A DNA stretch of 64,000 nt, taken from positions 14,597 through 78,596 of the forward strand of contig JAUXNU010000127.1 in assembly GCA_030682655.1 (NCBI GenBank), given 5' to 3'. Position numbers and translations under genes: made by a program. Within the stretch, counting starts at the first letter, position 1; the number at the start of each line of letters is the position of its first letter. This document shows positions 25,802 to 61,345 of this stretch, piece after piece. A model generated the notes under the pieces. It did not search any database, was not told where the DNA came from, and saw nothing but the letters and a program-made list of their open reading frames with translations. Origin of the DNA: Actinomycetota bacterium. Lineage in GTDB: Bacteria > Actinomycetota > Coriobacteriia > Anaerosomatales > JAUXNU01.

Positions 25802-26929
25802 GTGGAGATGCGACATCAGGGCACGGCCCGGCTGGACAAGCGGACGAAGGACCTCGTCAAGAGGCTTGGCAGGGACGACATCGCGATCATCGACCACGTC
25901 GATATGGATCGCGTGAGTGCTGAATCGCTGCTCGAGACCGGGACAGAAGTCGTCATCAACGCCGAGAGGTTCATTTCCGGCGTCTACCCGAACGTCGGCC
26001 CGCTCCTGCTCGCTCGTGGCGGAGTGCGCCTGATCGACGATGTCGGCCCAGAGATATTCCAACGCGTGCGCGAGGGCGATGCGATCGATGTTATCGGCAA
26101 TGAGGTCCTTCTTGCGGGAAACGTTGTCGCGCGCGGAACACGCCTCACCGTGGAAACCATCGAAGCTGCCATGGAGCAGGCCAAGGACGGACTCGAGGAA
26201 CAGCTGGACAAGTTCGCGCGCAACACCTTGGAGTACCTGGAGCGGGAGAAGTCGCTTCTCACCGACGGGACGAACGTGCCAGCCACCCGTACCGAGTTGC
26301 ATGGCAGGCATGCACTTGTCGTAGTCCGAGGCTACGACTACAAGGCCGATCTCGACGCACTCAAGCCGTACATCCGCGAGATTCGACCCGCTCTTGTAGG
26401 TGTGGACGGCGGAGCTGATGCGATCATAGAAGCTGGCTTCAAGCCGGACATCATCATCGGGGACATGGACTCGGTCAGCGACGATGCGCTGCTCTCCGGT
26501 GCGGAGATCATCGTGCATGCCTATCCAGACGGGCGTTGCCCCGGCATGGAAAGGCTGGATGCGCTCGGTGTTCGCGGGGTAGCGTGGCCTCTGGCAGCAA
26601 CAAGCGAGGATCTCGCGCTTCTTCTGGCATATGAGTCAGGAGCTGACCTTGTGGTCGCGGTTGGGACTCACGCGAACCTCGTGGAGTATCTTGACAAGGG
26701 GCGCAAAGGGATGGCTTCCACGTTTCTCGTCCGGCTCAAGGTCGGGCCTAAGCTCGTCGACGCGAAAGGCGTCAACAAGCTCTACCGGACATCGGTCGGA
26801 CCAACGGATCTCATGTTGCTTGTGGGTGCGGCTCTTGTTGCGGTGAGCGTGATCGTGATGATCTCGCCCATGGTTCGCCAGATGCTATCGCTGCTCTTGC
26901 TGCGAGTTCGCACGATATTGGGTATCTAG
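25802..26929 (+). CDS. steA: SteA-like putative cytokinetic-ring protein (thiamine-pyrophosphokinase-like domain + C-terminal TM)
   Basis: 375 aa. GTARLDKRTKDLVKRLGRDDIAIIDHVDMD N-terminus and IIGDMDSVSDDAL motif, with a C-terminal hydrophobic helix. The position directly after recN matches actinobacterial steA. Confidence 0.7.
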   Translation: MEMRHQGTARLDKRTKDLVKRLGRDDIAIIDHVDMDRVSAESLLETGTEVVINAERFISGVYPNVGPLLLARGGVRLIDDVGPEIFQRVREGDAIDVIGNEVLLAGNVVARGTRLTVETIEAAMEQAKDGLEEQLDKFARNTLEYLEREKSLLTDGTNVPATRTELHGRHALVVVRGYDYKADLDALKPYIREIRPALVGVDGGADAIIEAGFKPDIIIGDMDSVSDDALLSGAEIIVHAYPDGRCPGMERLDALGVRGVAWPLAATSEDLALLLAYESGADLVVAVGTHANLVEYLDKGRKGMASTFLVRLKVGPKLVDAKGVNKLYRTSVGPTDLMLLVGAALVAVSVIVMISPMVRQMLSLLLLRVRTILGI

Positions 26930-26956: not shown

Positions 26957-27829
26957 ATGTACAACCTTCGCTACCATATCGCGTCGCTCGTGGCGGTCTT
27001 CCTTGCAATGGCGATCGGCCTGCTCCTTGGCACTATCGTCGTCGAGAGAGGTACTTTCGACAGGCAGCGCGATTCGATCGTGGAGAGCCTTCAGGATGAG
27101 TTTCGCACGCTTGCCGATGAGAACGATGTGCTTCGCACGGACAACGAGCACCTCGACGCTTTCGTAGGTGACCTGGTCCCCGCTCTCACGGGCGATGTCC
27201 TTGCGGGCAAGAGGTTCCTGGTGATCGCGTCGACCGGTAGAACCGACGGGCTCGGGGCTGTGACCCAGGCCATCGGGCAGGCCGGCGGAGAGGTGATAGT
27301 GGCGACGGAGAGCGAAGCCGGGATGGCACTTGCTGATCCCGCGGTCTCTCAGGTAGCGACACCGGTGGTGGGGGATCTGACGGGTGACGATCTGGTTTCG
27401 GCAGTCTCGAAGACGCTTGCTGCCGAGTGGGCGACTCCGGGCGTCGATCGCCCTCTCACAGATGCGCTGAGCGAAGCAGGTGCGATTCGCTTCGATCCCG
27501 CACTGCGGGAAGACGTGTTTGTGGATGGTGTGATCGCGATGGCTGCGTGGGACGGTGTACCAGATGACCTCGCGCTGAGGATAGCCGAGGAGCTTTCCCG
27601 GGTGGGCCGGATCAGCATCGGTGCGGAGGCCGGGACGAATCCGACGGGCGTCGCTGCTGCGAGTGCAGCGCAAGGTCTGTCTGCCGTCGACAACGCCAGC
27701 AGCGCCGCCGGGCGGCTGTCTGTGGTGTGGCTGCTCGCCGGACGGGCAAAGGGCTACTTCGGAACCGGGGATGCCGCTGACGCGCCATGGCCGACGATGG
27801 AGACGAAGACGGGCTCGCCGAAGGACTAG
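26957..27829 (+). CDS. MctB-like (DUF3186 / copper transporter family) membrane-anchored protein
   Basis: 290 aa. MYNLRYHIASLVAVFLAMAIGLLLG N-terminal anchor plus coiled-coil (SLQDEFRTLADENDVLRTDNEHL). Located after steA, as Rv1698 is in Mycobacterium. Confidence 0.6.
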   Translation: MYNLRYHIASLVAVFLAMAIGLLLGTIVVERGTFDRQRDSIVESLQDEFRTLADENDVLRTDNEHLDAFVGDLVPALTGDVLAGKRFLVIASTGRTDGLGAVTQAIGQAGGEVIVATESEAGMALADPAVSQVATPVVGDLTGDDLVSAVSKTLAAEWATPGVDRPLTDALSEAGAIRFDPALREDVFVDGVIAMAAWDGVPDDLALRIAEELSRVGRISIGAEAGTNPTGVAAASAAQGLSAVDNASSAAGRLSVVWLLAGRAKGYFGTGDAADAPWPTMETKTGSPKD

Positions 27830-28518
27830 GCGGGGGTGCGACGACGCTCGAACGCAAGCCGCGCCAACGCCCGTCCGACATGGACGAACTGCTGTCCCCT
27901 GTGGGCAAATCCCGTCAGATCGCGACCGGTTGCTGCGTGACTCATCGTGGTCGGTATCTCGATGACACGCATTCCCGCGCGCAGCGCGCGGACGGTCAGG
28001 GCGACTTCGACCCCGTATCCGAATGCGAAAGGCGTCACGTTCGCGAGACAACGGGCCGACAGCGCTCTTTGACCTGAGAGCGGGGCCTGTGCCACGAACC
28101 CGCCACCCATTCGAGCGATCCCCCAACGTGCGAGACCCTTGACGAGACCGACACCGGCTTTGCCCGCAGGGCGCGGGAATGCGGCAATCACCAAGTCCGC
28201 GCGTCCTTCGGAGACCGGGTCGAGAAGAAGCTGGCCCTGCTCCGCAGACTGGCCCAGGTCCCCGTCGAGAAGCAGGAGCACCTCGATCTCCTCGGCCAGA
28301 TGGGCGATGCCGGTGTCGAGGGCCGCGCCTTTGCCCACGTTGTCGGGCAGGGCGAGCACTTCGGCCCCCGCAGCCCGTGCGACTTCGGCCGTCGAGTCGG
28401 TGGAGCCGTCGTCGACGACCAGGACACGGTCGACACCGCGGATGGAGCGTGCGGCGATCACGGTCGCGCCGATGAGATCGGCTTCGTTGAAGGCGGGGAT
28501 GAGTGCGACGACGCTCAT
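27826..28518 (-). CDS. Family 2 glycosyltransferase (small, DPM1/GtrB-like)
   Basis: 230 aa from the internal ATG at 28518. ALIPAFNEADLIGATV, VVDDGSTDST, and DxD-like LLDGDL. ATGA overlap with the murJ stop. Its stop overlaps the mctB-like stop in a shared CTAG. Confidence 0.8.
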   Translation of the reverse strand: MSVVALIPAFNEADLIGATVIAARSIRGVDRVLVVDDGSTDSTAEVARAAGAEVLALPDNVGKGAALDTGIAHLAEEIEVLLLLDGDLGQSAEQGQLLLDPVSEGRADLVIAAFPRPAGKAGVGLVKGLARWGIARMGGGFVAQAPLSGQRALSARCLANVTPFAFGYGVEVALTVRALRAGMRVIEIPTTMSHAATGRDLTGFAHRGQQFVHVGRALARLAFERRRTPA

Positions 28519-30080
28519 CGAGATCGCCCTGTCAGTCCCACGATGCCTCTCCGGATGAGCGCCACGCCCTCTGGGATCTCGGGTACGCGCAGGAGGGCTG
28601 CGATGCCGTAGGTGACGCCAAGACCGAGCGAGCCGGCGATGGCGAGCTGGACGAGGAATCCGGCGCGCGCGTCGGAAAGACCGCGAGTCGCATACAGCAG
28701 GCCGACGACGACCGCCGCCCCAGCCGTTGATGCGACAAGCATCCGGGCCAGAATGGAGACGACGCCGCGCATGTCGAACGCGCCGATGCGGCGGCGAAGG
28801 ACAAACAGGAGGGCGACGAGGCTTATGGACGCGAACACCGCATCGGAGATAGGGATGCCCCGTAGTCCAAGCCCCTTCCAGCTCCCGATGCCGACTGTGA
28901 GGGTCGCGTACAGCGAAACCTGGACGACGGTCGCCGCGCCGTTGACGAGCATCGGCGTCTTGGTGTCCTGCATCGAGTAGAAGGTCCGGATGAGGAACAT
29001 GAACATTGCGAAGAAGAACAGCGCCACGCCCCACCAGACGAGTACTTCGGCGACGACCGGTATGTCCTCGGCAGTGAAACGACCGGCGCGATACAGGGTG
29101 GTCAGTGGTGTGGCCAGCGTGACAAGCATGGCCGCCATCGGCAGCATGAGGACGCCGGTGATGCGGAGTCCCCTGCCGAAGGTCAGCTTGAAACTCGACC
29201 AGTCGTTGCGTCCGGCCTGGTCGGAGAGCTCGGTGAAGATCGCCGTTGCCAGAGCCACGGCGAAGATGCCGTATGGAAGCTGGTAGAACATCCACGCGTA
29301 CATCAGTGTCGCCGGTCCTTCGGGGGAGACCTCGAAGGCGTAGGCGTTGCGGAAGGACACGGCGATCAGGTTCGTGACGACGTAGAGCACCGTGGGAACT
29401 GCCATCTTGCCGAGCCGGCGCATTCCCGGGTGCTTGAAATCGATGCGCAAGGTGTACGCAGGTTTGAGTCTGAGCAGGCTCGGGAGCTGCACGGCGAACA
29501 TGGCGAGCACTCCGAGAGACGTGCCGACTGCCAATCCGATTCGGGCCAGCTCAGGATTCGTCTCGCGGAAGGGAACGTAGAAGCCCAGCAGAGTGACGAT
29601 CACAACAAGGTTGTTGAACACGGGGCCGATAGTCGGCCAGAAGTAGCGCCTCTGCGAGTTGAGCACGGCGCTGATGATCGATCCTGCGCCGTAGAACACC
29701 ACCTGGACCGCGAAGAATCGGAAGAAGTACGTGGCGAGCGCCGCGTCGTCCGGACTGATACGAAATGTCTGGGTCCTGACGAACGCTTCGGCATACACCG
29801 TGCCAAGGACGGCTACCACGCTCAGGATGAGCGTGGTCAGGTTGAAGAGCGAGCTCGCGAAACGCCAGGCGTCTTCGCGGCTCTTGTCTCCCCACCACTC
29901 CAGAAAGATCGGTATGAAGAGCGACGAGATGATGCCGCCTGCGACGAGCTCGTAGATCATGTTCGGGATGTTGTTCGCGACGCCGTACGATGCAGCGAGC
30001 GCGGTCACTCCGAGCGCGTATGCCGTCGCCCAGGTGCGCACAAACCCCGTGACCCGGGACAGCGTCGTAGATATGGACAT
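28515..30080 (-). CDS. murJ: MurJ/MviN-family (MOP superfamily) lipid-linked glycan flippase
   Basis: 521 aa. LSRVTGFVRTWATAYALG...ANNIPNMIYELVAGG N-terminal MurJ signature and ~14 hydrophobic segments. Confidence 0.85.
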   Translation of the reverse strand: MSISTTLSRVTGFVRTWATAYALGVTALAASYGVANNIPNMIYELVAGGIISSLFIPIFLEWWGDKSREDAWRFASSLFNLTTLILSVVAVLGTVYAEAFVRTQTFRISPDDAALATYFFRFFAVQVVFYGAGSIISAVLNSQRRYFWPTIGPVFNNLVVIVTLLGFYVPFRETNPELARIGLAVGTSLGVLAMFAVQLPSLLRLKPAYTLRIDFKHPGMRRLGKMAVPTVLYVVTNLIAVSFRNAYAFEVSPEGPATLMYAWMFYQLPYGIFAVALATAIFTELSDQAGRNDWSSFKLTFGRGLRITGVLMLPMAAMLVTLATPLTTLYRAGRFTAEDIPVVAEVLVWWGVALFFFAMFMFLIRTFYSMQDTKTPMLVNGAATVVQVSLYATLTVGIGSWKGLGLRGIPISDAVFASISLVALLFVLRRRIGAFDMRGVVSILARMLVASTAGAAVVVGLLYATRGLSDARAGFLVQLAIAGSLGLGVTYGIAALLRVPEIPEGVALIRRGIVGLTGRSR

Positions 30081-30346: not shown

Positions 30347-30372
30347 TCGTCGCACGTGTACACGTGCGACGA
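30347..30372. promoter_or_regulatory. 26-bp perfect palindrome (putative operator or 5'-UTR hairpin) abutting the RBS of the 771-aa membrane protein gene
   Basis: TCGTCGCACGTGT|ACACGTGCGACGA was checked base by base: 13+13 nt, no mismatch. The right arm overlaps the GAGGAG RBS (30371-30376), and the ATG is at 30382. Confidence 0.9.
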
Positions 30373-30381
30373 GGAGTGTGG

Positions 30382-32697
30382 ATGAAGCGTTCGCTGACAC
30401 TGGTTGTGATCGTCGCGTCGATCGTCGCGACACTACTGCCTGCTGCCGCCGCGAAAGACGTGCAGCCGGCGCGCCGGGTCGTGCTCGTCCTGGCCCCGTA
30501 TCTTGAATGGTCGGACATCACCGCAGAAAGTGCGCCTGCTATCGCAGAACTCGGTGCTTCAGGGGCTCTCGGGAATCTGAACATGCGCAACCGTGGCAGA
30601 CTCTCAAGCTTGTCGTCGCCGGTACAGGGCGCGCTCACCCTCTCGTCCGGTTCATGGGCGGCCGAGGACCCATTGGCAGCGGCGGCGTACGGCTCGGACG
30701 AGTACTACGAGGGCGGGACGGCCGGTGATGCGTTCCTGCGGGCCACAGGGGCCGATTCGGCCGGTGCACAGGTCGTCTACCTTGGGATGTCCCGTGCTTT
30801 GCGCTTCAACGAGCAGGCCGAGACGCTCGCGGTCAAACTCGGCGCTCTCGGCCAGGCAATCGTGGATGCGGGTGGAACCACCGCGGCCATTGGGAACTCC
30901 GATTCCGGGTACGAGGTACGTGGCCTGGCCAGGAGTCGCCCGGCCGCGCTCGTTGCAATGGACGCGCAGGGTCGTGTTGTCCTTGGCGACGTATCATCCG
31001 GACTGCTCCAAAGCGATTCCGAGGCGCCATTCGGCATATCGACCGATCTGGCTGCGTTCGAGAAGGAGTATCAGAGGGTCTCAGAGGAGTTATCGAAGGC
31101 CACAGGGCCAGTGCTGGTCGTTCTCGATCCGGGAGATCTTCAGCGAGCCAAGGAGTTCGCGCCTGAGGCTTCCCCGGCGGTTGCTCGGGCGCACCACAGG
31201 CAGGCGGTCCGGACGCTGGATGTCATCGTCGACATCGTGATGAACGGGCTACCGGACGACAGCGTCATCATGGTCGTTCCGCAGGCGCTGGTTGAGACTC
31301 CCGGTGAGGTCATGGGTCTTGCACCCGTCATCGTCGCCGGTCCAGGTTGGTCTGGATATGCCAGTTCCTCGTCGACGCAGCGAACGGGCCTCGTCACGAA
31401 CCTCGACGTTGCCGCCACGGTGACGGGCTCGCTGGGTATCGAGAAGCCGGTCGAGGTGCTAGGGAACCCCATGGTACCCGTGCGCAACTCGGGCTCACTC
31501 GCGGACAGGGTCGCCGAGTTGTCGTCTATGAACGACGCGGCGGTCGCAGTCGACAGCGCGAAGCCCGCGATCATCAATGCGTTCATCGCGTGCACTACGC
31601 TGATTCTCATGCTCGCGACGGTCGTTCTCCTGCGGGCGCGAAGATGGAGCGTTCGCACGGTCGATCGGGTGTCGCGCTCAGGTATCACGCTGCTGTTGAT
31701 AGCCCTGACGGTTCCGGTGGCATCGACGGCGATGTTCGCGCTTGGGACTCGTCCGCAGAGTGCTGCGGCTGCGAGCGTTCAGTTCGCGGTGGTGGGTGCG
31801 ATTCTGGCCGTCGCGGCGCTCGTGCTGCGACGGTTCGTCGCTCTGCGCGTTCCCGTCGCTATTCTCAGCTTGCTCGCTACCGGCGTGATACTTGTCGATC
31901 AGTGGTTCGACGCGCCGTGGTCCTTCACGAGCTTCCTTGGGTACTCTCCTCTGATGGGGGCGCGCTACTACGGACTTGGGAACGAGAGCGCGGCGGTGTT
32001 GGTCGGCTCGGTGCTCGTCGGAACAAGCCTGCTCATGGATCAGTTCCCTGAGTCTGCCTGGACCCGACACATGCGCTTGTGGCTCCTGCCGGGTATCGGT
32101 GCGGTCATCGTCGGTACCGCCGCAGCCCCGTTTCTTGGGGCAAATGTGGGAGTCGTCGTGTGGGGCGTGGTCGCCTTCGGATTCGCGTGGTCGCTCATGA
32201 ACCGTGTGCGTTTCGGCTGGAGGCTAGCGCTGGGGGTGGCGGCCATCGTCGTCGCGCTTCTGGTGGCGTTCTCACTTGTGGATCTGTCTGCGGGCACGGG
32301 AAGTCAGACGCATCTGGCCCGTGCGTGGGAGAGTGCGCGTGCGGGCGGCGTGGGCGAGCTCTGGCTTATCGTGGCGCGAAAGGCCGAGACGAACATGCGC
32401 GTTCTGACTCGAACGAACTGGGCGTACCTTCTTGTCGCGGTTCTCGGATTCCTTGGCTTCATGCGCTGGAGGCCTCAGGGTGATTTCGCGGACACGCTTG
32501 CGGAGAATCCCTACTTCTCCGCCGCGATGGCTGCCTGCCTCGTGGGTGGAGTGGCTGCATACCTGACCGAGGACTCGGGGATCGTGATCCCGGCGCTGAT
32601 GTTTCTCTACGTAGGAGTGGGCATTCTGTGCCTGATGCTCGACCGGCTGCCCGGTGTCATGCAAAGCGAGCATTCCGGGGAAGGGGACAGCTCGTGA
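30382..32697 (+). CDS. Large envelope protein: signal peptide + ~420-aa extracytoplasmic domain + polytopic C-terminal membrane domain (function unknown)
   Basis: 771 aa from the ATG at 30382 (RBS GAGGAG). MKRSLTLVVIVASIVATLLPAAAAKD signal-like N-terminus. The soluble region has alkaline-phosphatase-superfamily-like edge motifs (VVLVLAPYLEWSD...; TGLVTNLDVAATV). About 9-11 hydrophobic helices start at ~aa 430. Confidence 0.7.
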   Translation: MKRSLTLVVIVASIVATLLPAAAAKDVQPARRVVLVLAPYLEWSDITAESAPAIAELGASGALGNLNMRNRGRLSSLSSPVQGALTLSSGSWAAEDPLAAAAYGSDEYYEGGTAGDAFLRATGADSAGAQVVYLGMSRALRFNEQAETLAVKLGALGQAIVDAGGTTAAIGNSDSGYEVRGLARSRPAALVAMDAQGRVVLGDVSSGLLQSDSEAPFGISTDLAAFEKEYQRVSEELSKATGPVLVVLDPGDLQRAKEFAPEASPAVARAHHRQAVRTLDVIVDIVMNGLPDDSVIMVVPQALVETPGEVMGLAPVIVAGPGWSGYASSSSTQRTGLVTNLDVAATVTGSLGIEKPVEVLGNPMVPVRNSGSLADRVAELSSMNDAAVAVDSAKPAIINAFIACTTLILMLATVVLLRARRWSVRTVDRVSRSGITLLLIALTVPVASTAMFALGTRPQSAAAASVQFAVVGAILAVAALVLRRFVALRVPVAILSLLATGVILVDQWFDAPWSFTSFLGYSPLMGARYYGLGNESAAVLVGSVLVGTSLLMDQFPESAWTRHMRLWLLPGIGAVIVGTAAAPFLGANVGVVVWGVVAFGFAWSLMNRVRFGWRLALGVAAIVVALLVAFSLVDLSAGTGSQTHLARAWESARAGGVGELWLIVARKAETNMRVLTRTNWAYLLVAVLGFLGFMRWRPQGDFADTLAENPYFSAAMAACLVGGVAAYLTEDSGIVIPALMFLYVGVGILCLMLDRLPGVMQSEHSGEGDSS

Positions 32698-33659
32698 CAG
32701 ATTGGACGGCGGAGTCGGTACGCCTCGTCGCCGCGCTTCTGGCCGGATGGGGTCTGCCGGCCCTTGGGATGCACATGTTTGTGCCGACGCTCGAGACATC
32801 CGGACCGCATGTGCGGAACTACCGGGACGCGGATGTGTTCGTCGGACTCGGTACGGTCTGGGTGTTCTGGGTGATCGCGATGGTCGGGCTGAATACCGTA
32901 GCTGTCTCAGGGGTCTTCTTCGGCAGAGAGCTCGCCGCTCCGGTCGTATTCCAGGCCATCCCCGTAGTCGTAGCGGCGTTCGTTTTCGGACTGATCGATG
33001 ACGCCATGGGCGGTTCCGCAGAGAAGGGGTTTGGCGGTCACGTGAGGGCGCTCCTCAGAGGCAGGCTGACGACCGGCGGGCTGAAGCTCCTTGGCATCGG
33101 GGCGGCCTCGCTCGGCGTCGCGCTTGTCCTTGAGCTGTCGCGCGCGGGTGAACCCGGGGCGACTCCCGTGTGGCGGACCGCCGTCGCGGTAGTAGCCGCG
33201 ACCGGAATCATCGCGCTGAGTGCGAACCTCGTGAACCTCCTGGATGTGCGTCCGGCGCGGGCCATCAAGGCGCATACCGCACTGAGTCTCATCGTGGTAT
33301 GCGTGGCAGTGGCACGCGCGATCCAGCTGGACTTCTCCGCGGGCGCTTCTCTCTTCGAGGGTGTTGGTCTGTTCGTCATGATGATCGGGCCGATGGTGGC
33401 CGTGTGGCGCTGGGACGCCAGCGGCCGCGGGATGCTCGGGGATGCTGGAGCCAACGCTGCGGGCGCGCTGGCAGGCTTCATGCTGGCCGCGGTTCTGCCT
33501 CTGCCGGGCCAGGTGATCGCGGCGGCGGCACTCCTTGGCATGAACCTACTCTCGGAGCGGGTCTCGTTCTCGGCCGTGATCGAGCACAACCGCGCGCTGG
33601 CATGGGTGGACGGGCTCGGCAGGATGCCCGAGGTGACCGAAAATCGCCCGGCTTCGTGA
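32694..33659 (+). CDS. MraY/WecA-like (GT4 polyprenyl-phosphate sugar-1-P transferase family) membrane protein with a divergent catalytic loop
   Basis: 321 aa. GTGA overlap with the upstream stop. GLIDDAMG and MLGDAGANAAG resemble the MraY DD and GDxGS loops, but the NxxNxxDGxDGL loop reads NLVNLLDVRPARA. About 9-10 TM segments. Confidence 0.6.
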   Translation: MTDWTAESVRLVAALLAGWGLPALGMHMFVPTLETSGPHVRNYRDADVFVGLGTVWVFWVIAMVGLNTVAVSGVFFGRELAAPVVFQAIPVVVAAFVFGLIDDAMGGSAEKGFGGHVRALLRGRLTTGGLKLLGIGAASLGVALVLELSRAGEPGATPVWRTAVAVVAATGIIALSANLVNLLDVRPARAIKAHTALSLIVVCVAVARAIQLDFSAGASLFEGVGLFVMMIGPMVAVWRWDASGRGMLGDAGANAAGALAGFMLAAVLPLPGQVIAAAALLGMNLLSERVSFSAVIEHNRALAWVDGLGRMPEVTENRPAS

Positions 33660-33715: not shown

Positions 33716-35329
33716 ATGGCAAAGTACATATTCGTGACCGGTGGAGTCGTATCTTCGCTCGGCAAGGGCATTACCGCCGCCTCCCTCGGGAGGCTGCTCA
33801 AGGCCCGCGGGTTGAAGGTGACCATCCAGAAGCTCGACCCGTATCTGAACGTCGACCCCGGCACGATGAGCCCCTTCCAGCATGGCGAGGTCTTCGTCAC
33901 CGACGACGGGGGAGAGACCGACCTCGATCTGGGTCACTACGAGCGCTTCATCGACGAATCACTCTCGCGCGACTGCAACGTCACTGCGGGTTCGGTCTAT
34001 TCGACCATCGTGACCAAGGAACGCCGGGGCGATTTTCTTGGCGGCACGGTTCAGGTTATTCCGCACGTGACCAACGAGATCAAGGACCGCATCCTGCGCC
34101 TTGCCGAGCAGACGCAGCCCGACGTGATCATCACGGAAGTGGGCGGCACGGTCGGCGACATCGAGTCCCTGCCGTTCCTCGAGGCGATCAGGCAGCTGCG
34201 CAAGGACCAAGGCCGGGAGAACGTCTGCTACATCCACGTGACGCTCGTGCCGTTCATCGCGGCAAGCGCGGAACTCAAGACCAAGCCCACGCAGCATTCG
34301 GTCAAGGAGCTTCGCAGCATCGGTATCCAGCCGGACTTCATCGTGTGTCGCTCTGACCGCCCGATCGACGCGGGGATACGGCGCAAGATAGCGCTGTTCT
34401 GCGATGTCGACCCGAAGGCGGTCGTGAGCGCCCAGGACGCGAGCAGCATCTATGAGGTGCCGCTCCGGCTGCGCGAACAGCAGCTCGACGAGATGGTCAT
34501 CGATCGGCTGCATCTCGACTGCGGGCAGCCGAACATGGACGAGTGGAACGCTTTCGTCGCTCACTCGGCGTCGCTGTCCAGTGAGGTCGACATCGCGCTG
34601 GTCGGCAAGTACGTGCAGCTCCCCGACGCATACCTCTCCGTCACCGAGGCCCTCGACCATGCGGGTATCTTCCACGACCACAAGGTGAACGTGCACTGGG
34701 TGGACGCCGAGTCGTTGACGCCAGAGGAGGTCGACCAGGTCCTTTCGGAGATGGATGGCATTCTTGTGCCCGGGGGCTTCGGCATTCGGGGCATCGAAGG
34801 CAAAGTGCGTGCGGCGCGCTACGCTCGCGAAGGCAAGGTCCCGTACTTCGGTATCTGCCTTGGCCTGCAGGTCGCCGTCGTTGAGTTCGCGCGGTACGTC
34901 GCGGGACTTGAGGGTGCGAACTCGGCCGAGTTCGATCCGGTCACGGAACACCCGGTCATCGACCTCATGCTCGAGCAGCACGAGGTCGACGACATGGGCG
35001 GCACCATGCGCCTGGGCGCCTATCCCTGCAAGGTCACAGCGGGAACCAGGGGCCACGAGGCCTACAAGGAAGAGGTCATCTACGAGCGGCATCGACACCG
35101 CTACGAGGTCAACAACGCGTATCGTCAGAAGCTCGTGGATGCCGGACTCGTTGTAAGCGGACTGAGTCCTGATGGCAAGCTGGTCGAGATGATCGAGCTG
35201 CCGGACCATCCGTGGTTCCTTGGCAATCAGGGACACCCCGAGTTCAAGAGCCGTCCGACGCGTCCGGCACCGCTATTCCGGGACTTCGTCGGGGCGGCGG
35301 TCGATTACCGGCGCGCACGCGAGAGCTGA
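33716..35329 (+). CDS. pyrG: CTP synthase
   Basis: 537 aa. [20 protein letters not shown]-terminus and the glutaminase motif GICLGLQ. Confidence 0.95.
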
Positions 35330-35336
35330 CGGGCGC

Positions 35337-36455
35337 ATGACTGACGGGCGGCTACTGCGGACATTTCTCGACCTGGTGCGTATTGACAGCCCATCGCGCT
35401 CGGAGTCGGTTGTGGCAGCGTATTGCGGAAGCGCTTTTGAAGCGCGCGGGTTCGAAGTGCGTTTCGATGACACCATGTCGAGTACGGGTGCCGACATCGG
35501 GAACCTGATAGCGACGCGTCACGGCGATTCGGAGCGAACGCTCGTCCTTAGCGCGCACATGGACTGCGTGGAGCCATGCCGGGGTGTCGAACCTGTGGTG
35601 GTGGACGGGGTTGTCTCCTCGGCAGGGCAGACCGTGCTTGGCGCCGATGACAAGGCGGGCATCGCGGCGATTCTGGAGGCCGTGGACCGGCTGGACGAAT
35701 CGGGCGCACACACACCGGCGCTCAAGATCATCCTGACAGTCTGTGAAGAGCTTGGACTGCACGGCGCCAAGGCGCTCGACCCGGCGGACGCTGCCGGGGA
35801 TCTCTGCCTGGTGCTCGATGCGGACGGCGAGCCCGGCGGCATCGTCATTGGCGCTCCGACGCACTACACGTTCGTGGCGACATTCCAAGGAACCGCCTCC
35901 CACGCGGGCGTTGCGCCTGAGCGAGGCCGGTCGGCGCTCGTCATGGCATCGCGCGCGATCGCTGCGATGCAGCTCGGCCGGCTGGACGAGAACACCACCG
36001 CCAACATAGGGACCGTCGAAGGCGGAATCGCGACGAATGTGGTAGCCGCATTCGCGAGGGTTACCGGTGAGTGCCGCTCACTCCTCGCCGAAAGGGCGGA
36101 CGAAGTGCGGCTGCTCATGGACCAGGCGATGAGGGAGGCGGCTCGCACCGGGGACGGACAGGTGGATATCGCGTGGACCAAGGAGTACGAGGGGTTCCTG
36201 CGGGACTCCGACGACACGCTTGTCGTGATCGTCTCCGATGCGTGTCGGGAGGTAGGGCTACAGCCCCGGACATTCACGACCGGTGGTGGCAGCGACGGCA
36301 ACGTCTTCTCCAGCGACGGGACTCCCACGCTCGTGCTGTCCTGTGGCATGCGCAACGTCCACAGCACTGACGAGACCGTTCACCTTGCGGACATGGATTC
36401 GATTGCGGCGCTCATCGTCGCGGTGGCAAGCAGGGTGGCCGATCCGTCGTCATGA
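35337..36455 (+). CDS. M20-family metallopeptidase (peptidase T / tripeptidase-like)
   Basis: Internal ATG at 35337. SAHMDCV, GADDKAGIAAILEA, CEELGLHG and a C-terminal GGGSDGN pattern. Confidence 0.8.
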   Translation: MTDGRLLRTFLDLVRIDSPSRSESVVAAYCGSAFEARGFEVRFDDTMSSTGADIGNLIATRHGDSERTLVLSAHMDCVEPCRGVEPVVVDGVVSSAGQTVLGADDKAGIAAILEAVDRLDESGAHTPALKIILTVCEELGLHGAKALDPADAAGDLCLVLDADGEPGGIVIGAPTHYTFVATFQGTASHAGVAPERGRSALVMASRAIAAMQLGRLDENTTANIGTVEGGIATNVVAAFARVTGECRSLLAERADEVRLLMDQAMREAARTGDGQVDIAWTKEYEGFLRDSDDTLVVIVSDACREVGLQPRTFTTGGGSDGNVFSSDGTPTLVLSCGMRNVHSTDETVHLADMDSIAALIVAVASRVADPSS

Positions 36456-37564
36456 GACTCGTGTGGGCCATCGTCACCTCCGTGGAGGCGACAGCTGACG
36501 GTGCGCAGACGCTCGAGGTCGCGCTCGATGACCGGGGCAGTGGACGTGCGATCGCCTACACGCGGCTGACCGGGGAGTGCCGTCTCGCCGACCGCGTCTT
36601 GCTCAATACGACCGCCGTCGACATGTCCCTCGGCACAGGTGGGCTGCACTTCGTGGTGGCCCGCATGGGGGACGCCGAGGGTGTGGCGCTCGACGACCCG
36701 TCCGGCGGACACATCATGAAGATGCGCTATACGCCGTCGCAGATCGACGTGCTTGCCGTCGAGGAGCACGAGAGCCCACACCACTCGATCATGAAGGCTG
36801 CCGAGGACATAGCAGGGCTTCCGGTGGCCTGCTGCGGGCTGCACAGCCAGGTGCCCCTGGTGGCCGCAGCGGTCAAGGCTTTCGACGCGAACTTGCGCAT
36901 AGCATATGTCATGACCGACTTCGCGGCGCTGCCGCTGGTGCTTTCGGATGTCGTGAGGGCCGCTGTCAGGGCGGGATTGATCGATACCACGATCACGTGC
37001 GGACAGGCGTTCGGCGGTGACCTCGAGGCCGTGAACCTGCACTCGGCTCTGCTGGCTGCGCGCCATGTGGCACGGGCGGATGTGGCGATCGCCGCAATCG
37101 GTCCCGGTGTCGTCGGCACCTCGACACCATTCGGCCACGGCGGCATCGCGCAGGGTGAGGCGATAAACGCTGCGGGTGTTCTCGGAGGAGTCCCCGTGGC
37201 ATGCCTGAGGGTCTCCTTCGCCGATGCCCGCGCCCGCCATCGCGGCGTGAGCCATCACACGCTTACCGCGCTCTCGACGGTCGCGCTTGCGCCGGCTCTG
37301 GTCGCGGTTCCCTCGCTTCCCGAAGAGTACGCCGAGGAGGTAGACCTGGCCCTCGAAGAGGCCCACGTGTGGAGCCGGCACAGGCGCGCCATCTCCTCGG
37401 CCGGGAGCACCGCTCCGCCCTCTCTAGGCGGCGTCGAAGTGAGAACGATGGGTCGCGATCTTAACCAAGATCCCGCGTTCTTCGCAGCCGCTTTCGCCGC
37501 TGGGGACGTCTGTGCCAGAGTCGCCCGGGTAGCGCAGGGCAAGCTGCCGCCGACGGGTGAATAG
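36452..37564 (+). CDS. DUF3866-like conserved protein of unknown function
   Basis: 370 aa. ATGA overlap with the M20 gene. Family assignment is from recalled family features (LNTTAVDMSLGTGGLHFV, HSQVPLVAAAVK, IGPGVVGTSTPFGHGG) and was not verified by a search. Confidence 0.55.
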   Translation: MRLVWAIVTSVEATADGAQTLEVALDDRGSGRAIAYTRLTGECRLADRVLLNTTAVDMSLGTGGLHFVVARMGDAEGVALDDPSGGHIMKMRYTPSQIDVLAVEEHESPHHSIMKAAEDIAGLPVACCGLHSQVPLVAAAVKAFDANLRIAYVMTDFAALPLVLSDVVRAAVRAGLIDTTITCGQAFGGDLEAVNLHSALLAARHVARADVAIAAIGPGVVGTSTPFGHGGIAQGEAINAAGVLGGVPVACLRVSFADARARHRGVSHHTLTALSTVALAPALVAVPSLPEEYAEEVDLALEEAHVWSRHRRAISSAGSTAPPSLGGVEVRTMGRDLNQDPAFFAAAFAAGDVCARVARVAQGKLPPTGE

Positions 37565-46773: not shown

Positions 46774-47208
46774 ATGTTCCTGGGCGACTATCAGCACACG
46801 CTGGACGCCAAAGGGCGCGTTTCGCTGCCCGCCAAGTTCCGGGCGGAGATGACGGGCAAGCTCGTCATCGCCAAGGGAATGGAAGGCTGTCTCTACGTCT
46901 ACTCGGCCGAAGAGTACTCCGCCTTCGTGAAACGGCTCATGGGCAAGGACGACTTCGAACCGCGCTTCCGCAAAGTGAGGCGCTACTTCACGTCCGGCGC
47001 GGTTGAAGCCGAGCTTGATTCGGCAGGTCGCATCACGCTACCGCCGCTGCTCAGGGAGTTCGCCAAGCTCGAGAAAGACGTATCGATCACAGGGAACGGC
47101 AACCGCATCGAAGTGTGGAACGCGGATGCCTGGTCCACGTATAGCGGCGAGACTGCCGACGGCATCGAAGACTTCGCCAAGGAGCTCGCCGACGCGGGTC
47201 TCCTGTAG
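46774..47208 (+). CDS. mraZ: Transcriptional regulator MraZ
   Basis: 144 aa. MFLGDYQHTLDAKGRVSLPAKFR and a second SpoVT/AbrB-like repeat (DSAGRITLPPLLREF). Confidence 0.95.
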   Translation: MFLGDYQHTLDAKGRVSLPAKFRAEMTGKLVIAKGMEGCLYVYSAEEYSAFVKRLMGKDDFEPRFRKVRRYFTSGAVEAELDSAGRITLPPLLREFAKLEKDVSITGNGNRIEVWNADAWSTYSGETADGIEDFAKELADAGLL

Positions 47209-47217
47209 GCCTTGACA

Positions 47218-48153
47218 ATGGAATACCGGCACACCCCAGTTTTGCTGGCCGAGGTCACGCAGCACTTATCGTTGCACCCCGGTTCGATAATCGTCGACTG
47301 TACCTTAGGCGGGGCAGGTCACGCGAAGCGGATTGCAGAATCGATCGCACCGACAGGCATTCTCGTCGGCATCGACCAAGATGATTCAGCGCTTGACGCA
47401 GCAGCAGTCACACTCCGCCTCGGCCAGCAGATCATCCTCTTGAAGGGGAACTTCGGCGATCTTGACGACCTGCTAGCGCAGGCCGGCATCCCATACGCCG
47501 ACGGTTTCCTGTTCGACCTCGGCGTGTCCTCGCCACAGCTCGACCTCCGGCATCGGGGGTTCTCGTACCAGGAGGACGCGGCCCTGGACATGCGGATGGA
47601 TGGGCGCGGGTCTATCACAGCAGCAGACATCGTCAATTCCTACTCAGAAGAGCAGCTGACCCGCATCATCCGCGAGTACGGAGAGGAACGGTGGGCCTCG
47701 CGCATCGCAGCCTTCATCCTAGCCGCGCGGGGCCGCCGACCAGTCGAGAGGACCGGCGAGCTCGTCGAGATCATCAAGAACGCAATCCCGGCGTCGGCAC
47801 GTCGCAGCGGGCCTCACCCGGCCAGGCGTACGTTCCAGGCGCTCCGGATCGCGGTGAACTCCGAGCTCGAAGTCCTCGAACGCGGACTTCGAGCTGCGGT
47901 CAACTGGCTTGCACCTGGTGGCCGCATCGCGGTCATCAGCTATCACTCGCTTGAGGATCGCATCGTGAAGACGCTCTTCGGCGAACTTGCGGCGGGGTGT
48001 GTGTGTCCTCCCGAGTTGCCAGCGTGTGTGTGTAGCAGGGAGCCGGTACTCCGAATCGTCACGAAGAAACCCGTCGTGCCTACGGCGGACGAGATTGAGC
48101 GCAACCCGCGGGCAAGAAGTGCGAGGCTCCGGGTGGCAGAGCGAAAGACGTAG
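47218..48153 (+). CDS. rsmH: 16S rRNA (cytosine1402-N4)-methyltransferase RsmH
   Basis: MEYRHTPVLLAEV, DCTLGGAGHA and DLGVSSPQLD motifs. TTG 47212 is the alternative start. Confidence 0.9.
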   Translation: MEYRHTPVLLAEVTQHLSLHPGSIIVDCTLGGAGHAKRIAESIAPTGILVGIDQDDSALDAAAVTLRLGQQIILLKGNFGDLDDLLAQAGIPYADGFLFDLGVSSPQLDLRHRGFSYQEDAALDMRMDGRGSITAADIVNSYSEEQLTRIIREYGEERWASRIAAFILAARGRRPVERTGELVEIIKNAIPASARRSGPHPARRTFQALRIAVNSELEVLERGLRAAVNWLAPGGRIAVISYHSLEDRIVKTLFGELAAGCVCPPELPACVCSREPVLRIVTKKPVVPTADEIERNPRARSARLRVAERKT

Positions 48154-48190
48154 CAGGGTCGGAACGCGGAGTTGAAGGAGGTGGGTCGCG

Positions 48191-48742
48191 GTGGCAGTTG
48201 CAGCACGGAAGGCCTCGTACAATGCGCAGGTGAGTCGCCGCGCTCCTCTTCGGCTGGCCGGATCGGCCTGCGGGCGTCGCGCGAGCAGCCGCGGTGTTTC
48301 GAAGTGCAAGAGCGCATATACCGCATGCTTGACCATCATGGTCGCCCTGGCAGTCGCAGGGCTGGGTCGTGTGGCACTGTCGGTCGAGGCTACAGAAACG
48401 TCCTTCGAGAAGGGCGTGCTTGCCCGAGACATCAAGGCCGAGCGCCTCGAGGGCGATCTTCTTGAGGTGGACAAGAGCGCGCTCACCACGCCCTCGCGCA
48501 TCGAGAGAATCGCGGGCAGCACGATGGAGATGGCTGCTGCGGGGGAGGTGTCCTATCTTGAGCTTCCCGCCGAACCCGTTCCTGTTGCCGAATCCGGTGC
48601 GGAGTGGGGCGAAGAGTCGGACCGGGGCAGTAGCCCTGCGGCGGAAGGCAAGCGAGGCCTGTTCCAGGCGGTGATGGATATGGCTGCAGGTGAGGCGCAG
48701 GTCCTTCTCGTAGGTGATGCAGGACTCGCATCGTCCCGATGA
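48191..48742 (+). CDS. ftsL: FtsL-like cell division protein
   Basis: 183 aa. GTG start ~10 nt after GAAGGAGGTG. Basic N-terminus, single TM (CLTIMVALAVAGLGRVAL), a short coiled-coil. Position between rsmH and ftsI. Confidence 0.65.
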   Translation: MAVAARKASYNAQVSRRAPLRLAGSACGRRASSRGVSKCKSAYTACLTIMVALAVAGLGRVALSVEATETSFEKGVLARDIKAERLEGDLLEVDKSALTTPSRIERIAGSTMEMAAAGEVSYLELPAEPVPVAESGAEWGEESDRGSSPAAEGKRGLFQAVMDMAAGEAQVLLVGDAGLASSR

Positions 48743-50511: not shown

Positions 50512-50529
50512 TGAGCGGCGCAGGACGCA

Positions 50530-50538
50530 TGATAGAAT
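50530..50538 (+). promoter_or_regulatory. Possible internal extended -10 element (TGaTAGAAT) ahead of murE
   Basis: TGATAGAAT in the 51-nt ftsI-murE gap, 25 nt before the murE GTG. Confidence 0.3.
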
Positions 50539-50562
50539 CGACCGTCTTCTAGGTGGGAACAA

Positions 50563-53426: not shown

Positions 53427-54462
53427 ACTCGCCCAATACCCTACCTACCAGGTCTTCCTCGCCGTGGTGCTGGCGCTTGTTGCGTCCGGCGCTCTGTTCC
53501 CGCTGTGGATACGGGTACTCCGATTCCGCAATATCGGCCAACAGGTTCGGGCGGACGGACCGCAGGGCCATCTCGTCAAACAGGGCACGCCGACGATGGG
53601 TGGAGTCCTCATCCTGTTTGTCATCGCCAGCACCTACCTGGTTCTCGCTGACATCGGACCGCTGTCGATTCTTGCCCTTGGCGTGACGTTCGCGTGCGGG
53701 CTCCTTGGCTTCATCGATGACTGGGCGAAGGTCTGGCACGAGCGTTCGCTGGGACTCAGGCCCCGGGCCAAGATCATGTGGCAGGCGGTTATCGCGATCA
53801 CCTTCGGCGTGCTCGTGGTCAACTGGGCTGGGCTTTCGACCGACGTGGCGCTTCCGTTGGTCGGAGTCAACGTGGACATGGGCGCCCTCTCCAGTATGGT
53901 CAACCTGGGCTCACTGGAGATCGTCGTCCCATGGCTCTATCTGGCCCTGGTGTTCTTCATGATCCTTAGCTTCTCCAATACCGTTAACCTGACCGATGGG
54001 TTGGACGGTCTTGCAGCGGGAACGGTCACCATCGTGATGCTCGCGTATGCCGGCATCGCGTTTCGCCAGGACCGGCTTGAGGTCGCCTTGCTGGCCGCTG
54101 CGATCGCGGGCGCGTGCATCGGATTCCTTTGGTACAACAGCTATCCCGCCGACATATTCATGGGCGACACGGGCTCTTTGGGTCTTGGCGCTGCGATAGC
54201 GGCTTTGGCCATCATCACCAAGACGGAGCTATTAGCCGTTCTCATCGGCGGCATATACGTGGTCGAGGGTCTGTCGGTGATCCTGCAGATCGCTTCGTTC
54301 AAGCTCACCGGGCGCCGGATCCTGCGCATGGCCCCGATCCACCATCACTTCGAGATGATCGGGTGGTCTGAGACGAAGGTGATGGTCCGTTTCTGGATCG
54401 TGACCGGCATCATGGCCGGCGCAGGTTTCGCTCTGTACTTCGTGGGTTCGGTGAGGAAGTAG
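53419..54462 (+). CDS. mraY: Phospho-MurNAc-pentapeptide translocase MraY
   Basis: Internal ATG at 53419, overlapping murF by 8 nt. Canonical GFIDDWAKV, NTVNLTDGLDGLA, MGDTGSLGLG and PIHHHFE motifs. Confidence 0.9.
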   Translation: MFRLAQYPTYQVFLAVVLALVASGALFPLWIRVLRFRNIGQQVRADGPQGHLVKQGTPTMGGVLILFVIASTYLVLADIGPLSILALGVTFACGLLGFIDDWAKVWHERSLGLRPRAKIMWQAVIAITFGVLVVNWAGLSTDVALPLVGVNVDMGALSSMVNLGSLEIVVPWLYLALVFFMILSFSNTVNLTDGLDGLAAGTVTIVMLAYAGIAFRQDRLEVALLAAAIAGACIGFLWYNSYPADIFMGDTGSLGLGAAIAALAIITKTELLAVLIGGIYVVEGLSVILQIASFKLTGRRILRMAPIHHHFEMIGWSETKVMVRFWIVTGIMAGAGFALYFVGSVRK

Positions 54463-54463
54463 A

Positions 54464-61323: not shown

Positions 61324-61345
61324 GCCAAGGCGTCTATTCACTTTC

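What the first reader, a model, noticed from the sequence alone, without database searches (positions are those of the whole stretch)
30382..32697. 771-aa protein combining a secreted ~420-aa domain with a C-terminal polytopic domain, with no recognisable family from sequence alone
It has a signal-peptide-like N-terminus (LLPAAAAKD). The soluble region has beginning and end strands reminiscent of the alkaline-phosphatase/sulfatase superfamily (VVLVLAPYLEWSD...; TQRTGLVTNLDVAATVTG), but I could not see obvious metal or nucleophile motifs. About 10 TM helices follow, with conserved-looking loops (GYSPLMGARYYGLGNES). The domain order, soluble then membrane, is the reverse of LtaS/EptA-type enzymes. 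Coupling to the MraY-like gene suggests an extracytoplasmic step acting on a lipid-linked substrate, such as a polymerase, ligase or phospho-transferase.
Basis: inference. Interest (0 to 1): 0.6.

Follow-up and report, generated by a model that had tools for sequence, protein, structure and literature searches.

The report
Orphan envelope protein with phosphatase-like ectodomain
This is a real, widely conserved but unstudied bacterial membrane protein: an outward-facing alkaline-phosphatase-like domain joined to an 11-helix membrane domain that matches no solved structure, and it is linked by gene order, overlapping genes and gene fusions to a lipid-carrier sugar pathway and to cell-separation genes, so it probably performs an unknown step in building the cell envelope.

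Summary
The 771-aa ORF (30382-32697, +) is real. It has a Shine-Dalgarno site, and 133 full-length homologs start at the same Met. The wider family holds over 5,000 clusters at 50% identity, in Actinomycetota and many Bacillota. It has no Pfam or NCBIfam model, and every source calls it hypothetical.

AlphaFold models are confident (pLDDT 87-90). Residues 30-370 have the alkaline-phosphatase (AP) fold; the best matches are the YejM/PbgA periplasmic domain and arylsulfatases. In this clade the canonical metal-binding Asp is Pro39 and the nucleophile Thr is Asn70, whereas about 70% of distant relatives keep both. The 11-helix C-terminal domain has no significant match in the PDB. Its outward-facing loops are the best-conserved part.

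The positive-inside rule places the AP domain outside the cell. The gene overlaps (GTGA) a divergent MraY/WecA-type transferase and lies opposite a MurJ-GT2 operon, between steA-steB and pyrG. Other Actinomycetota fuse MurJ, two copies of this protein and GT2 into one 2,394-aa protein. A probable C. difficile ortholog, CDR20291_1124, is essential.

My best reading is that it performs the outer-face terminal step on a flipped polyprenyl-linked glycan (confidence 0.4). The chemistry is unknown.

The parts
30382..32697 (+). CDS of the 771-aa protein ('T771')
   Evidence: Translation; homologs start at the same Met; family of 5,227 clusters at 50% identity.
30371..30376 (+). Shine-Dalgarno-like GAGGAG, 5 nt before the ATG
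   Evidence: Read directly from the sequence.
30382..30456 (+). N-terminal signal peptide or signal anchor (aa 1-25: MKR, then a hydrophobic helix, then AAAKD)
   Evidence: Helix 2-18 in the model, then low pLDDT at 17-26; hydrophobic window 1-27. Cleavage was not tested.
30469..31491 (+). Extracytoplasmic alkaline-phosphatase-fold domain (aa 30-370), with a degenerate canonical site (Pro39, Asn70) but invariant N172, D174, R186, G251-D252, R255, S329, T332 and D342 at strand ends
   Evidence: Foldseek against the PDB: YejM/PbgA, arylsulfatase A, NPP, BcsG, E down to 3e-5. Weak Pfam hits to SGSH_C, Sulfatase, Metalloenzyme and Phosphodiest in relatives. Column counts.
31498..31566 (+). Stalk helix (aa 373-395) that continues into TM1
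   Evidence: A single helix spans 373-421 in the model.
31567..32661 (+). 11-helix membrane domain (aa 396-760), fold unmatched
   Evidence: Domain-only model: pLDDT 89.8, pTM 0.90. No PDB match at E<=1e-3. No Pfam or NCBIfam hit. K+R count is 14.6 inside versus 1.9 in the short outer loops.
31936..31986 (+). Outer loop 2 motif (aa 519-535): LGYSPLMGARYYGLGNE. R528, G531, G533 and N534 are invariant in 75 distant relatives
32290..32418 (+). Outer loop 4 (aa 637-679): two amphipathic helices carrying H644, R647, R666, K667, N671 and R673
32569..32580 (+). Outer loop 5 (aa 730-733): E-D-S-G. D731 and G733 are invariant
32694..33659 (+). 321-aa divergent polyprenyl-phosphate sugar-phosphate transferase (MraY/WecA family). 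Its GTG start overlaps the T771 stop codon (GTGA)
   Evidence: Sequence. Alignment with E. coli MraY keeps the DD, NxxNLxD and GDxG motifs. The L047 ortholog hits PF00953 at 1.2e-11. The gene is conserved downstream of T771 in every Coriobacteriia-type locus that extends past the T771 gene.
28515..30080 (-). MurJ-type (MOP) flippase, transcribed divergently from T771
   Evidence: PF03023 at 1e-85; TIGR01695 scores 293.9 bits against a cutoff of 235.55.
27826..28518 (-). 230-aa GT2 glycosyltransferase (Dpm1/AglJ/PpgS-like). Its ATG overlaps the MurJ stop codon (ATGA)
   Evidence: Orthologs of 225-230 aa in L001 and L003.
25802..26929 (+). steA
   Evidence: NF040608 at 3.4e-150.
26957..27829 (+). 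steB (Pfam name MctB)
   Evidence: PF11382 at 1.8e-29. Function as SteB according to PMC12977500.
36452..37564 (+). DUF3866 gene, which travels with the module in both phyla
   Evidence: PF12982 at 5e-120; synteny.

Best explanation
T771 is the outer-face component of a conserved pathway that builds a glycan on a polyprenyl-phosphate carrier.

Proposed steps:
1. Inside the cell, the translationally coupled MraY/WecA-type transferase starts a sugar-phosphate on polyprenyl phosphate.
2. The small GT2 extends or complements this intermediate. In many Bacillota an adjacent GT4 may play this part.
3. The MurJ-type flippase moves the intermediate outward.
4. T771 takes the flipped lipid-linked unit at the outer leaflet and transfers it, by ligation or polymerisation, to its acceptor.

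Proposed working site: a composite one. The invariant basic and acidic residues of the outer loops of the 11-helix domain (R528-Y-Y-G-x-G-N-E, H644/R647, R666/K667/N671, D731-S-G) hold the (pyro)phosphate-lipid. The alkaline-phosphatase-like domain sits above them. In this clade that domain has lost the canonical Asp and Thr, so it would act as a binding lid for the glycan or acceptor rather than as a classic phosphotransferase.

The product is probably needed for normal wall growth and cell separation, given the link to SteA-SteB.

Shown here: the folds, the topology, the conservation pattern, the gene linkage and the fusions.
Inferred: the substrate, the reaction, and the role of each residue.
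For: Gene linkage:
- T771 and the transferase overlap by 4 nt. MurJ and GT2 overlap by 4 nt on the opposite strand.
- In all 22 Coriobacteriia-type loci, every part of the steA-steB-GT2-MurJ-T771-transferase-pyrG arrangement that the contig reaches is present, down to 39% identity.
- Fusion proteins: P0168 is MurJ + T771 copy + GT2 + T771 copy; P0146 is T771 copy + GT2 + T771 copy. P0168 occupies the same steB-to-pyrG position and is followed by a 282-aa homolog of the MraY/WecA-type transferase.
- In the Bacillota loci L047, L070 and L082, T771 lies divergently next to steA-(steB)-GT2-transferase-DUF3866. In 33 of 60 Bacillota loci a GT4 lies directly beside it on the same strand.

Topology and conservation:
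- K+R averages 14.6 in the predicted inner loops versus 1.9 in the short outer loops.
- Outer loops: 46% of columns are >=90% conserved, versus 10% of inner-loop columns. In the wide family the figures are 20% versus 0%.
- The invariant residues of the AP domain sit at the C-terminal ends of strands, where AP-fold active sites lie.

Published phenotypes:
- In C. difficile, cdr20291_1053-1057 (SteA-like, exported protein, GT2, GT-family protein, DUF3866) are essential. The 723-aa membrane protein CDR20291_1124, downstream of alaS, is also essential.
- Knock-down gives chaining, swollen or curved, phase-bright cells, like knock-down of teichoic-acid genes (PMC12157513).
- alaS-ireB-T771-ruvX synteny is seen in P. 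sordellii.
Against: - No biochemical or direct genetic data exist for any member of the family.
- The membrane domain matches no known transferase fold, so calling it catalytic is inference.
- The MurJ here meets the Lipid II flippase model cutoff and may simply be the housekeeping flippase.
- In many loci the transferase and MurJ-like gene sit beside steAB without T771, so the pathway may not need it.
- In most Bacillota, T771 is not adjacent to the transferase.
- The AP domain keeps Asp and Thr in about 70% of distant relatives, which suits a catalytic AP domain in those lineages and complicates a single mechanism for the family.
- C. difficile orthology rests on size, annotation and synteny, not on sequence. 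The authors warn of possible polarity onto alaS.
Confidence: 0.4

Rival explanations
1. T771 is an AP-type phosphotransferase that works like LtaS, EptA, OpgB or BcsG. The AP domain would attack a phosphodiester or pyrophosphate of a membrane lipid donor (a phospholipid or polyprenyl-PP-glycan), form a covalent intermediate, and pass a phospho-group or glycosyl-phosphate to an acceptor. The membrane domain would only present the lipid.
For: AP fold with LtaS/EptA-class relatives such as BcsG and YejM among the matches. In the wider family, 53/75 members keep the beta1 Asp, 54/75 keep the Thr, and D252 is near-invariant. Relatives weakly hit the Sulfatase, Metalloenzyme and Phosphodiest Pfam families. 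The domain faces outward.
Against: In this protein and its whole clade the Asp is Pro (31/31). The Thr position is Ser, Asn, Ala, Gly or Leu, and Asn in the target. No His ligands are conserved anywhere in the family. The outer loops of the membrane domain are far better conserved than expected for a passive lipid holder.
Confidence: 0.2
2. T771 is a non-catalytic sensor or scaffold that works like PbgA/YejM (LapC). It would bind a lipid-linked intermediate or product at the outer leaflet. It would then control its coupled partner (the initiating transferase) or the SteA-SteB cell-separation complex.
For: The best structural matches are the YejM/PbgA periplasmic domains (5i5f, 6vat). The canonical site is degenerate. 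The 1:1 translational coupling to the initiating enzyme and the constant neighbourhood of steA-steB fit a regulator. The SteAB complex is a transmembrane regulator with a UDP/GDP-binding pocket (PMC12977500).
Against: Foldseek scores are modest (TM about 0.5, 13-14% identity). About 20 invariant polar or glycine residues in the outer loops, and a conserved pocket in the AP domain across phyla, look more like an active site. The membrane domain is unrelated to the 5-helix N-terminal anchor of PbgA.
Confidence: 0.2
3. T771 is a transporter, flippase or carrier-lipid recycling factor. The 11-helix domain would move polyprenyl-phosphate or a lipid-linked unit across the membrane, or the protein would dephosphorylate polyprenyl-PP outside.
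For: A large polytopic domain with no transferase signature. Weak hint of an internal repeat, TM2-4 versus TM6-8. Most Bacillota loci have no adjacent flippase. Und-P supply is essential in C. difficile.
Against: Conservation is concentrated on one face only, the outer loops, rather than along a transmembrane path. Foldseek similarities to transporters are not significant: E>=0.1, TM<0.2. A dedicated MurJ-type flippase is encoded beside it, and is even fused to it. The AP site lacks the nucleophile needed for phosphatase chemistry.
Confidence: 0.08

Closest known systems
PbgA/YejM (LapC) of Enterobacteria
   Same: An essential inner-membrane protein with an outward-facing AP-fold domain whose catalytic site is degenerate. 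It acts at the outer leaflet on a lipid-linked glycan (LPS). It gives the best structural match to the T771 ectodomain.
   Different: PbgA has 5 N-terminal helices followed by the AP domain; T771 has the AP domain first and then 11 unrelated helices. Sequence identity is 13-14%. The partners differ: LapB/FtsH/LpxC for PbgA, versus the MraY/WecA-type transferase, GT2, MurJ and SteAB for T771.
LtaS / EptA / OpgB / BcsG phospho-transferases (Pfam Sulfatase PF00884 with an N-terminal 5-TM anchor)
   Same: AP-fold ectodomain mounted on a polytopic membrane domain, acting on lipid donors outside the cell. Distant T771 relatives keep an Asp...Thr...Asp set.
   Different: The domain order is reversed and the membrane domain is different. 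There is no Pfam Sulfatase hit in the target. Asp39 and Thr70 are lost in this clade, and no His ligands are conserved.
Eukaryotic GPI ethanolamine-phosphate transferases (PIG-N/Mcd4 family)
   Same: From my own knowledge, not tested here: the same order of parts, with an N-terminal anchor, a lumenal AP-fold domain and then a many-helix C-terminal membrane domain.
   Different: No hit to the PigN Pfam family in any scan. No such structure appears among the 50 best Foldseek matches shown. The catalytic residues are absent here.
Outer-face enzymes of polyprenyl-linked glycan pathways (WaaL/TacL ligases, Wzy polymerases, GT-C transferases, LCP phosphotransferases)
   Same: The expected position in a pathway made of an initiating phosphotransferase, glycosyltransferases and a MOP flippase. 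Conserved Arg, His and Asp residues in outer loops at the membrane surface.
   Different: No Pfam hit to Wzy_C, PMT, LytR_cpsA_psr or the like. The best GT-C structure, AglB (3waj), matches only at E=1.0, TM 0.23. The first outer loop, where GT-C enzymes carry their catalytic Asp, is not conserved.

Membership tests
Alkaline-phosphatase superfamily (fold level) | Central mixed beta-sheet alpha/beta fold shared by AP, NPP, sulfatases, iPGM, LtaS and YejM | tested here: met
   Model pLDDT 86.8. Foldseek against the PDB gives 31 hits at E<=1e-3; all those displayed (the list of 50 covers them) are AP-superfamily members, each with probability 1.00. Weak profile hits to sulfatase and iPGM.
Alkaline-phosphatase superfamily (catalytic members) | Metal-binding Asp/Glu at the end of strand beta1 | tested here: not met
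   Pro39 in the target and in 31/31 clade members. Asp in 53/75 distant relatives.
Alkaline-phosphatase superfamily (catalytic members) | Nucleophile Thr/Ser/Cys(FGly) before the helix that follows beta2 | tested here: not met
   Asn70 in the target. The clade has S19/N7/A3/G1/L1. Thr in 54/75 distant relatives.
Alkaline-phosphatase superfamily (catalytic members) | Asp-His pair after a central strand, plus a further His ligand | tested here: not met
   D252 is near-invariant, but it is followed by Leu/Thr rather than His. No His is conserved in the domain.
LtaS/EptA/PbgA-type membrane AP proteins | N-terminal 5-helix anchor followed by a C-terminal Sulfatase (PF00884) domain | tested here: not met
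   The order is AP domain then 11 helices. PF00884 is not hit in the target, and only weakly in 7/40 relatives.
PIG-N / GPI-EtNP transferase family | Phosphodiest-type AP domain plus a PigN C-terminal membrane domain (Pfam) | tested here: not met
   No PigN hit in any scan. Phosphodiest is hit only weakly in 3/40 relatives.
GT-C glycosyltransferases | GT-C membrane fold with a catalytic acidic residue in the first extracytoplasmic loop | tested here: inconclusive
O-antigen ligase / Wzy family | Wzy_C domain in a large outer loop | tested here: not met
   No Pfam hit at E<=10 on the membrane half. None among 40 relatives.
MraY/WecA polyprenyl-phosphate sugar-phosphate transferases (for the neighbour at 32694-33659) | PF00953 domain with the DD, NxxNxxD and GDxG(S) motifs | tested here: met
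   The target copy is itself below Pfam detection. Its 30%-identical L047 ortholog hits PF00953 at 1.2e-11, above the cutoff. All three motifs align with E. coli MraY. The HHH loop of MraY is absent.
MurJ/MOP flippases (for the neighbour at 28515-30080) | Score above the TIGR01695 trusted cutoff | tested here: met
   293.9 bits against a cutoff of 235.55.

The most novel reading that the evidence does not exclude
T771 founds a new class of extracytoplasmic envelope enzymes with a previously unseen membrane fold. It would be the missing terminal enzyme (ligase or polymerase) of an ancient pathway made of SteA-SteB, an MraY/WecA-type transferase, GT2 and a MurJ-type flippase. That pathway would make an as yet unidentified, division-associated glycoconjugate, would be shared by deep Actinomycetota and Clostridia, and would be essential in C. 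difficile.
Probability: 0.25. Interest if true: 0.85.

Novelty: new variant of a known kind. Interest (0 to 1): 0.62.

Why it matters
If the reading is right, a large protein family without any database model is part of an unrecognised envelope-assembly pathway in Gram-positive bacteria. The family has over 5,000 clusters at 50% identity and occurs in at least 525 species genomes.

It would give a biochemical context to the cluster cdr20291_1053-1057 and to CDR20291_1124. A 2025 C. difficile study lists these as essential genes of unknown function. It would also suggest that the SteA-SteB cell-separation system, studied so far only in Mycobacteriales, was originally tied to a lipid-linked glycan pathway.

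An essential, surface-exposed protein with a distinctive fold would be a candidate narrow-spectrum drug target.

Tried and rejected
Family and sequence searches:
- Pfam and NCBIfam scans of the whole protein, of each half at E<=10, and of 40 distant relatives. Only weak AP-superfamily hits appeared, and nothing for the membrane domain.
- Profile searches against PDB sequences gave only marginal sulfatase and iPGM hits.

Structure searches:
- Foldseek of the membrane-domain model against the PDB found nothing significant.

Readings I considered and rejected:
- The neighbour is the housekeeping MraY. Rejected: a canonical MraY sits in the dcw cluster at 53395-54462.
- The longer GTG start at 30247. 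Rejected on the alignment and the SD site.
- The palindrome upstream is a conserved operator. Rejected: it is not conserved in 12 related loci.
- An internal duplication of the membrane domain. Only weak support: hhalign probability 6%.

Unfinished:
- Two database searches seeded with Clostridia relatives did not list a C. difficile sequence. Only the top 120 hits are shown, so the C. difficile orthology is not verified by sequence.
- Literature searches for locus tags and for a link between SteAB and glycosyltransferases found no study of this family.
Full report
**Observation**

The mechanical ORF begins at GTG 30247. Three things support ATG 30382 instead:
- GAGGAG lies 5 nt upstream.
- All 31 aligned homologs start with M-[KR]-R at the same column.
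- Third-position G+C is 0.73.

The exact protein is recorded once, as a hypothetical protein of an Actinomycetota metagenome-assembled genome.

**Family**

A word-indexed search found 133 homologs of about 770 aa at 40-75% identity. All are unnamed and come mostly from Coriobacteriia-labelled MAGs.

A profile of 31 of them, run against 1.84 billion representatives, matched 5,227 clusters (E<=1e-3), of which 2,368 reach E<=1e-30.

These include:
- Thermoanaerobacter, Caldanaerobacter, Desulforudis and Thermincola;
- Alkaliphilus, Geosporobacter and Moorellales;
- Halanaerobiales;
- the Bacilli Ammoniphilus and Tepidibacillus;
- an Armatimonadota MAG.

Later searches added Romboutsia, Paraclostridium and Tepidibacter.

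Source names are only 'hypothetical', 'membrane protein', 'alkaline phosphatase-like' or 'phosphoglyceromutase'. No Pfam or NCBIfam model covers the family.

**Structure and topology**

AlphaFold2 with the 31-sequence alignment gave pLDDT 86.8 and pTM 0.85. The membrane half modelled alone gave pLDDT 89.8 and pTM 0.90.

Residues 30-370 adopt the alkaline-phosphatase fold. Foldseek against the PDB returns 31 hits at E<=1e-3, all AP-superfamily members:
- YejM/PbgA periplasmic domains (5i5f, 6vat; E about 3e-5, TM about 0.5);
- arylsulfatase A;
- carrageenan sulfatases;
- NPP;
- phosphopentomutase;
- iPGM.

BcsG follows just above that threshold (E 1.5e-3).

A long helix (373-421) runs from the domain into the membrane. 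Eleven transmembrane helices follow.

Across the clade, the predicted inner loops carry 14.6 Lys+Arg on average. The four short outer loops carry 1.9. So the AP domain and the conserved loops face outward, and the C-terminus is inside.

The membrane domain has no significant structural match. The best is E=0.096 with TM<0.25. The GT-C enzyme AglB appears only at E=1.0.

**Conservation**

The canonical AP catalytic set is not present in this protein.

| Position | Target | Its clade (31) | Distant relatives (75) |
|---|---|---|---|
| 39 (end of beta1) | Pro | Pro 31/31 | Asp 53/75 |
| 70 (nucleophile) | Asn | S19/N7/A3/G1/L1 | Thr 54/75 |

No His is conserved.

Other residues at strand ends are invariant or nearly so across both phyla: N172, D174, R186, G251-D252, R255, S329, T332, D342. 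So a pocket at the usual AP site is retained in altered form.

In the membrane domain the conserved residues are almost all in the outer loops:
- Y521, R528-[FY]-Y-G-x-G-N-E535;
- P583-x-L-G;
- D634;
- H644, R666-K667, N671;
- D731-S-G.

The share of columns that are >=90% conserved shows the same pattern:

| Region | Clade | Wide family |
|---|---|---|
| Outer loops | 46% | 20% |
| Inner loops | 10% | 0% |

Both conserved surfaces therefore face the same extracytoplasmic, membrane-proximal space.

**Neighbourhood**

The local gene order is nadK-recN-steA-steB(mctB)-[GT2 <- MurJ]-[T771 -> transferase]-pyrG-pepT-like-DUF3866-ald-xerD.

- MurJ passes the TIGR01695 cutoff.
- The GT2 (230 aa) resembles polyprenyl-phosphate sugar synthases such as AglJ and PpgS, and also GpgS. 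Its ATG overlaps the MurJ stop codon.
- The gene after T771 starts at GTG 32694, overlapping the T771 stop codon.
- That gene has no Pfam hit itself. Its Thermoanaerobacterium ortholog hits Glycos_transf_4 (1.2e-11). The family aligns with E. coli MraY through the DD, NxxNLxD and GDxG motifs, but lacks the HHH loop.
- It is an extra paralog. The canonical MraY lies in the dcw cluster at 53395-54462.

In all 22 Coriobacteriia-type loci, down to 39% identity, each module gene that the contig reaches is present in the same order.

In another actinomycetotal lineage the same slot between steB and pyrG holds a single 2,394-aa protein. It is made of MurJ, a T771 copy, GT2 and a second T771 copy, and is followed by the small transferase. 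A 1,790-aa version lacks MurJ.

In three Bacillota loci T771 lies divergently beside steA-(steB)-GT2-transferase-DUF3866. In 33 of 60 Bacillota loci a GT4 glycosyltransferase is its immediate same-strand neighbour. In others it follows alaS.

Seen from the transferase side, a metagenome scan kept its best 80 loci, and my tblastn re-check found the transferase in 79 of them. The neighbours were:
- steB in 50;
- steA in 43;
- a MurJ-like gene in 37;
- GT2 in 31;
- DUF3866 in 28;
- T771 in 11.

One layout, steA-steB-transferase-MurJ-pyrG, has no T771.

**Literature**

- SteA-SteB is a transmembrane septal complex that positions the hydrolase RipA in mycobacteria.
- SteA has a pocket that binds UDP or GDP.
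- steAB also occur in Clostridia downstream of spo0A (PMC12977500).
- In C. difficile, cdr20291_1053-1057 are essential genes of unknown function. They are annotated as pyrophosphokinase 373 aa, exported protein 291 aa, GT2 230 aa, GT-family protein 274 aa and DUF3866 355 aa.
- Their knock-down gives chaining, short, swollen, phase-bright cells (PMC12157513).
- CDR20291_1124, a 723-aa membrane protein after alaS, is essential by Tn-seq. Its knock-down gives chaining, curved, phase-bright cells. The authors caution about polarity onto alaS.
- Teichoic-acid knock-downs look similar.
- Size, annotation and the alaS-ireB-T771-ruvX synteny in P. sordellii make CDR20291_1124 the probable ortholog. 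CD1283 is IreB in C. difficile.
- I could not verify this orthology by sequence.

**Interpretation**

The evidence supports an outward-facing protein that belongs functionally with four partners:
- an initiating polyprenyl-phosphate transferase;
- a small GT2;
- a MOP flippase;
- the SteAB system.

I therefore favour a terminal outer-face step on the flipped lipid-linked unit. The conserved outer loops and the AP-like pocket would form one composite site (confidence 0.4).

The rivals are:
- a true AP-type phosphotransferase. This is more plausible for Thr-bearing Bacillota relatives than for this protein (0.2);
- a PbgA-like sensor or scaffold that regulates the coupled transferase or SteAB (0.2);
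- a transporter or carrier-recycling role (0.08).

None is excluded. The reaction, the substrate and the product are unknown.

**Comparison and novelty**

At fold level the protein is a member of the AP superfamily. It fails the catalytic-residue tests, and it fails the architecture tests for the LtaS/EptA/PbgA and PIG-N families. Its membrane domain cannot be placed in any family.

I rate it a new variant of a known kind, namely membrane-mounted AP-fold envelope proteins. There is a real chance (about 0.25) that the membrane domain and the pathway are new in kind.

Noticed in passing
window 30347-30372: A perfect 26-nt palindrome, TCGTCGCACGTGT|ACACGTGCGACGA, lies immediately 5' of the Shine-Dalgarno site of the 771-aa gene. 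It could be an operator or a 5'-UTR hairpin. It is not found upstream of the orthologs in 12 related loci.
   Followed up: partly
window 46774-62543: A complete division/cell-wall (dcw) cluster: mraZ, rsmH, a PBP, murE, murF, canonical mraY (53395-54462), murD, ftsW, murC and ftsZ. It lies only about 14 kb downstream of the module. The 321-aa transferase next to the finding is therefore a second, divergent paralog.
   Followed up: yes
L085 9001-16185 (protein P0168); protein P0146: Giant fusion proteins in other Actinomycetota. The 2,394-aa form is MurJ + family copy + GT2 + family copy; the 1,790-aa form lacks MurJ. The 2,394-aa form (P0168) occupies the same steB-to-pyrG slot; the genomic position of P0146 was not looked up. 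Two copies in one chain suggest the protein may work as a (pseudo)dimer.
   Followed up: partly
L088-L167 (metagenome loci): The small divergent MraY/WecA-type transferase is almost always next to steA-steB. Neighbour counts among the 79 loci where I re-found it: steB 50, steA 43. This includes a layout steA-steB-transferase-MurJ-pyrG that lacks both GT2 and the 771-aa family. The SteAB papers I read do not mention this link to a lipid-carrier transferase.
   Followed up: partly
window 35220-37564; L047 2122-3207: A DUF3866 gene, often with a PepT-like M20 peptidase, travels with the module in both Actinomycetota and Bacillota. It belongs to the essential C. difficile cluster cdr20291_1053-1057. 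Its role is unknown.
   Followed up: no
window 26957-27829: This gene is labelled by Pfam as the copper transport outer membrane protein MctB. It is the SteB partner of SteA. A 2026 structural paper argues against the copper-channel role, so the Pfam name is misleading here.
   Followed up: partly
window 31567-32661 (aa 396-760): There is a weak sign of an internal repeat in the membrane domain. TM2-4, ending at D506, aligns with TM6-8, ending at D634 (hhalign P=0.006, probability 6%).
   Followed up: partly
L087 5731-9133: In Paraclostridium sordellii the family member is inserted between ireB (a substrate of the PASTA kinase) and ruvX. An LCP (LytR-CpsA-Psr) gene lies about 2 kb downstream.
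   Followed up: no
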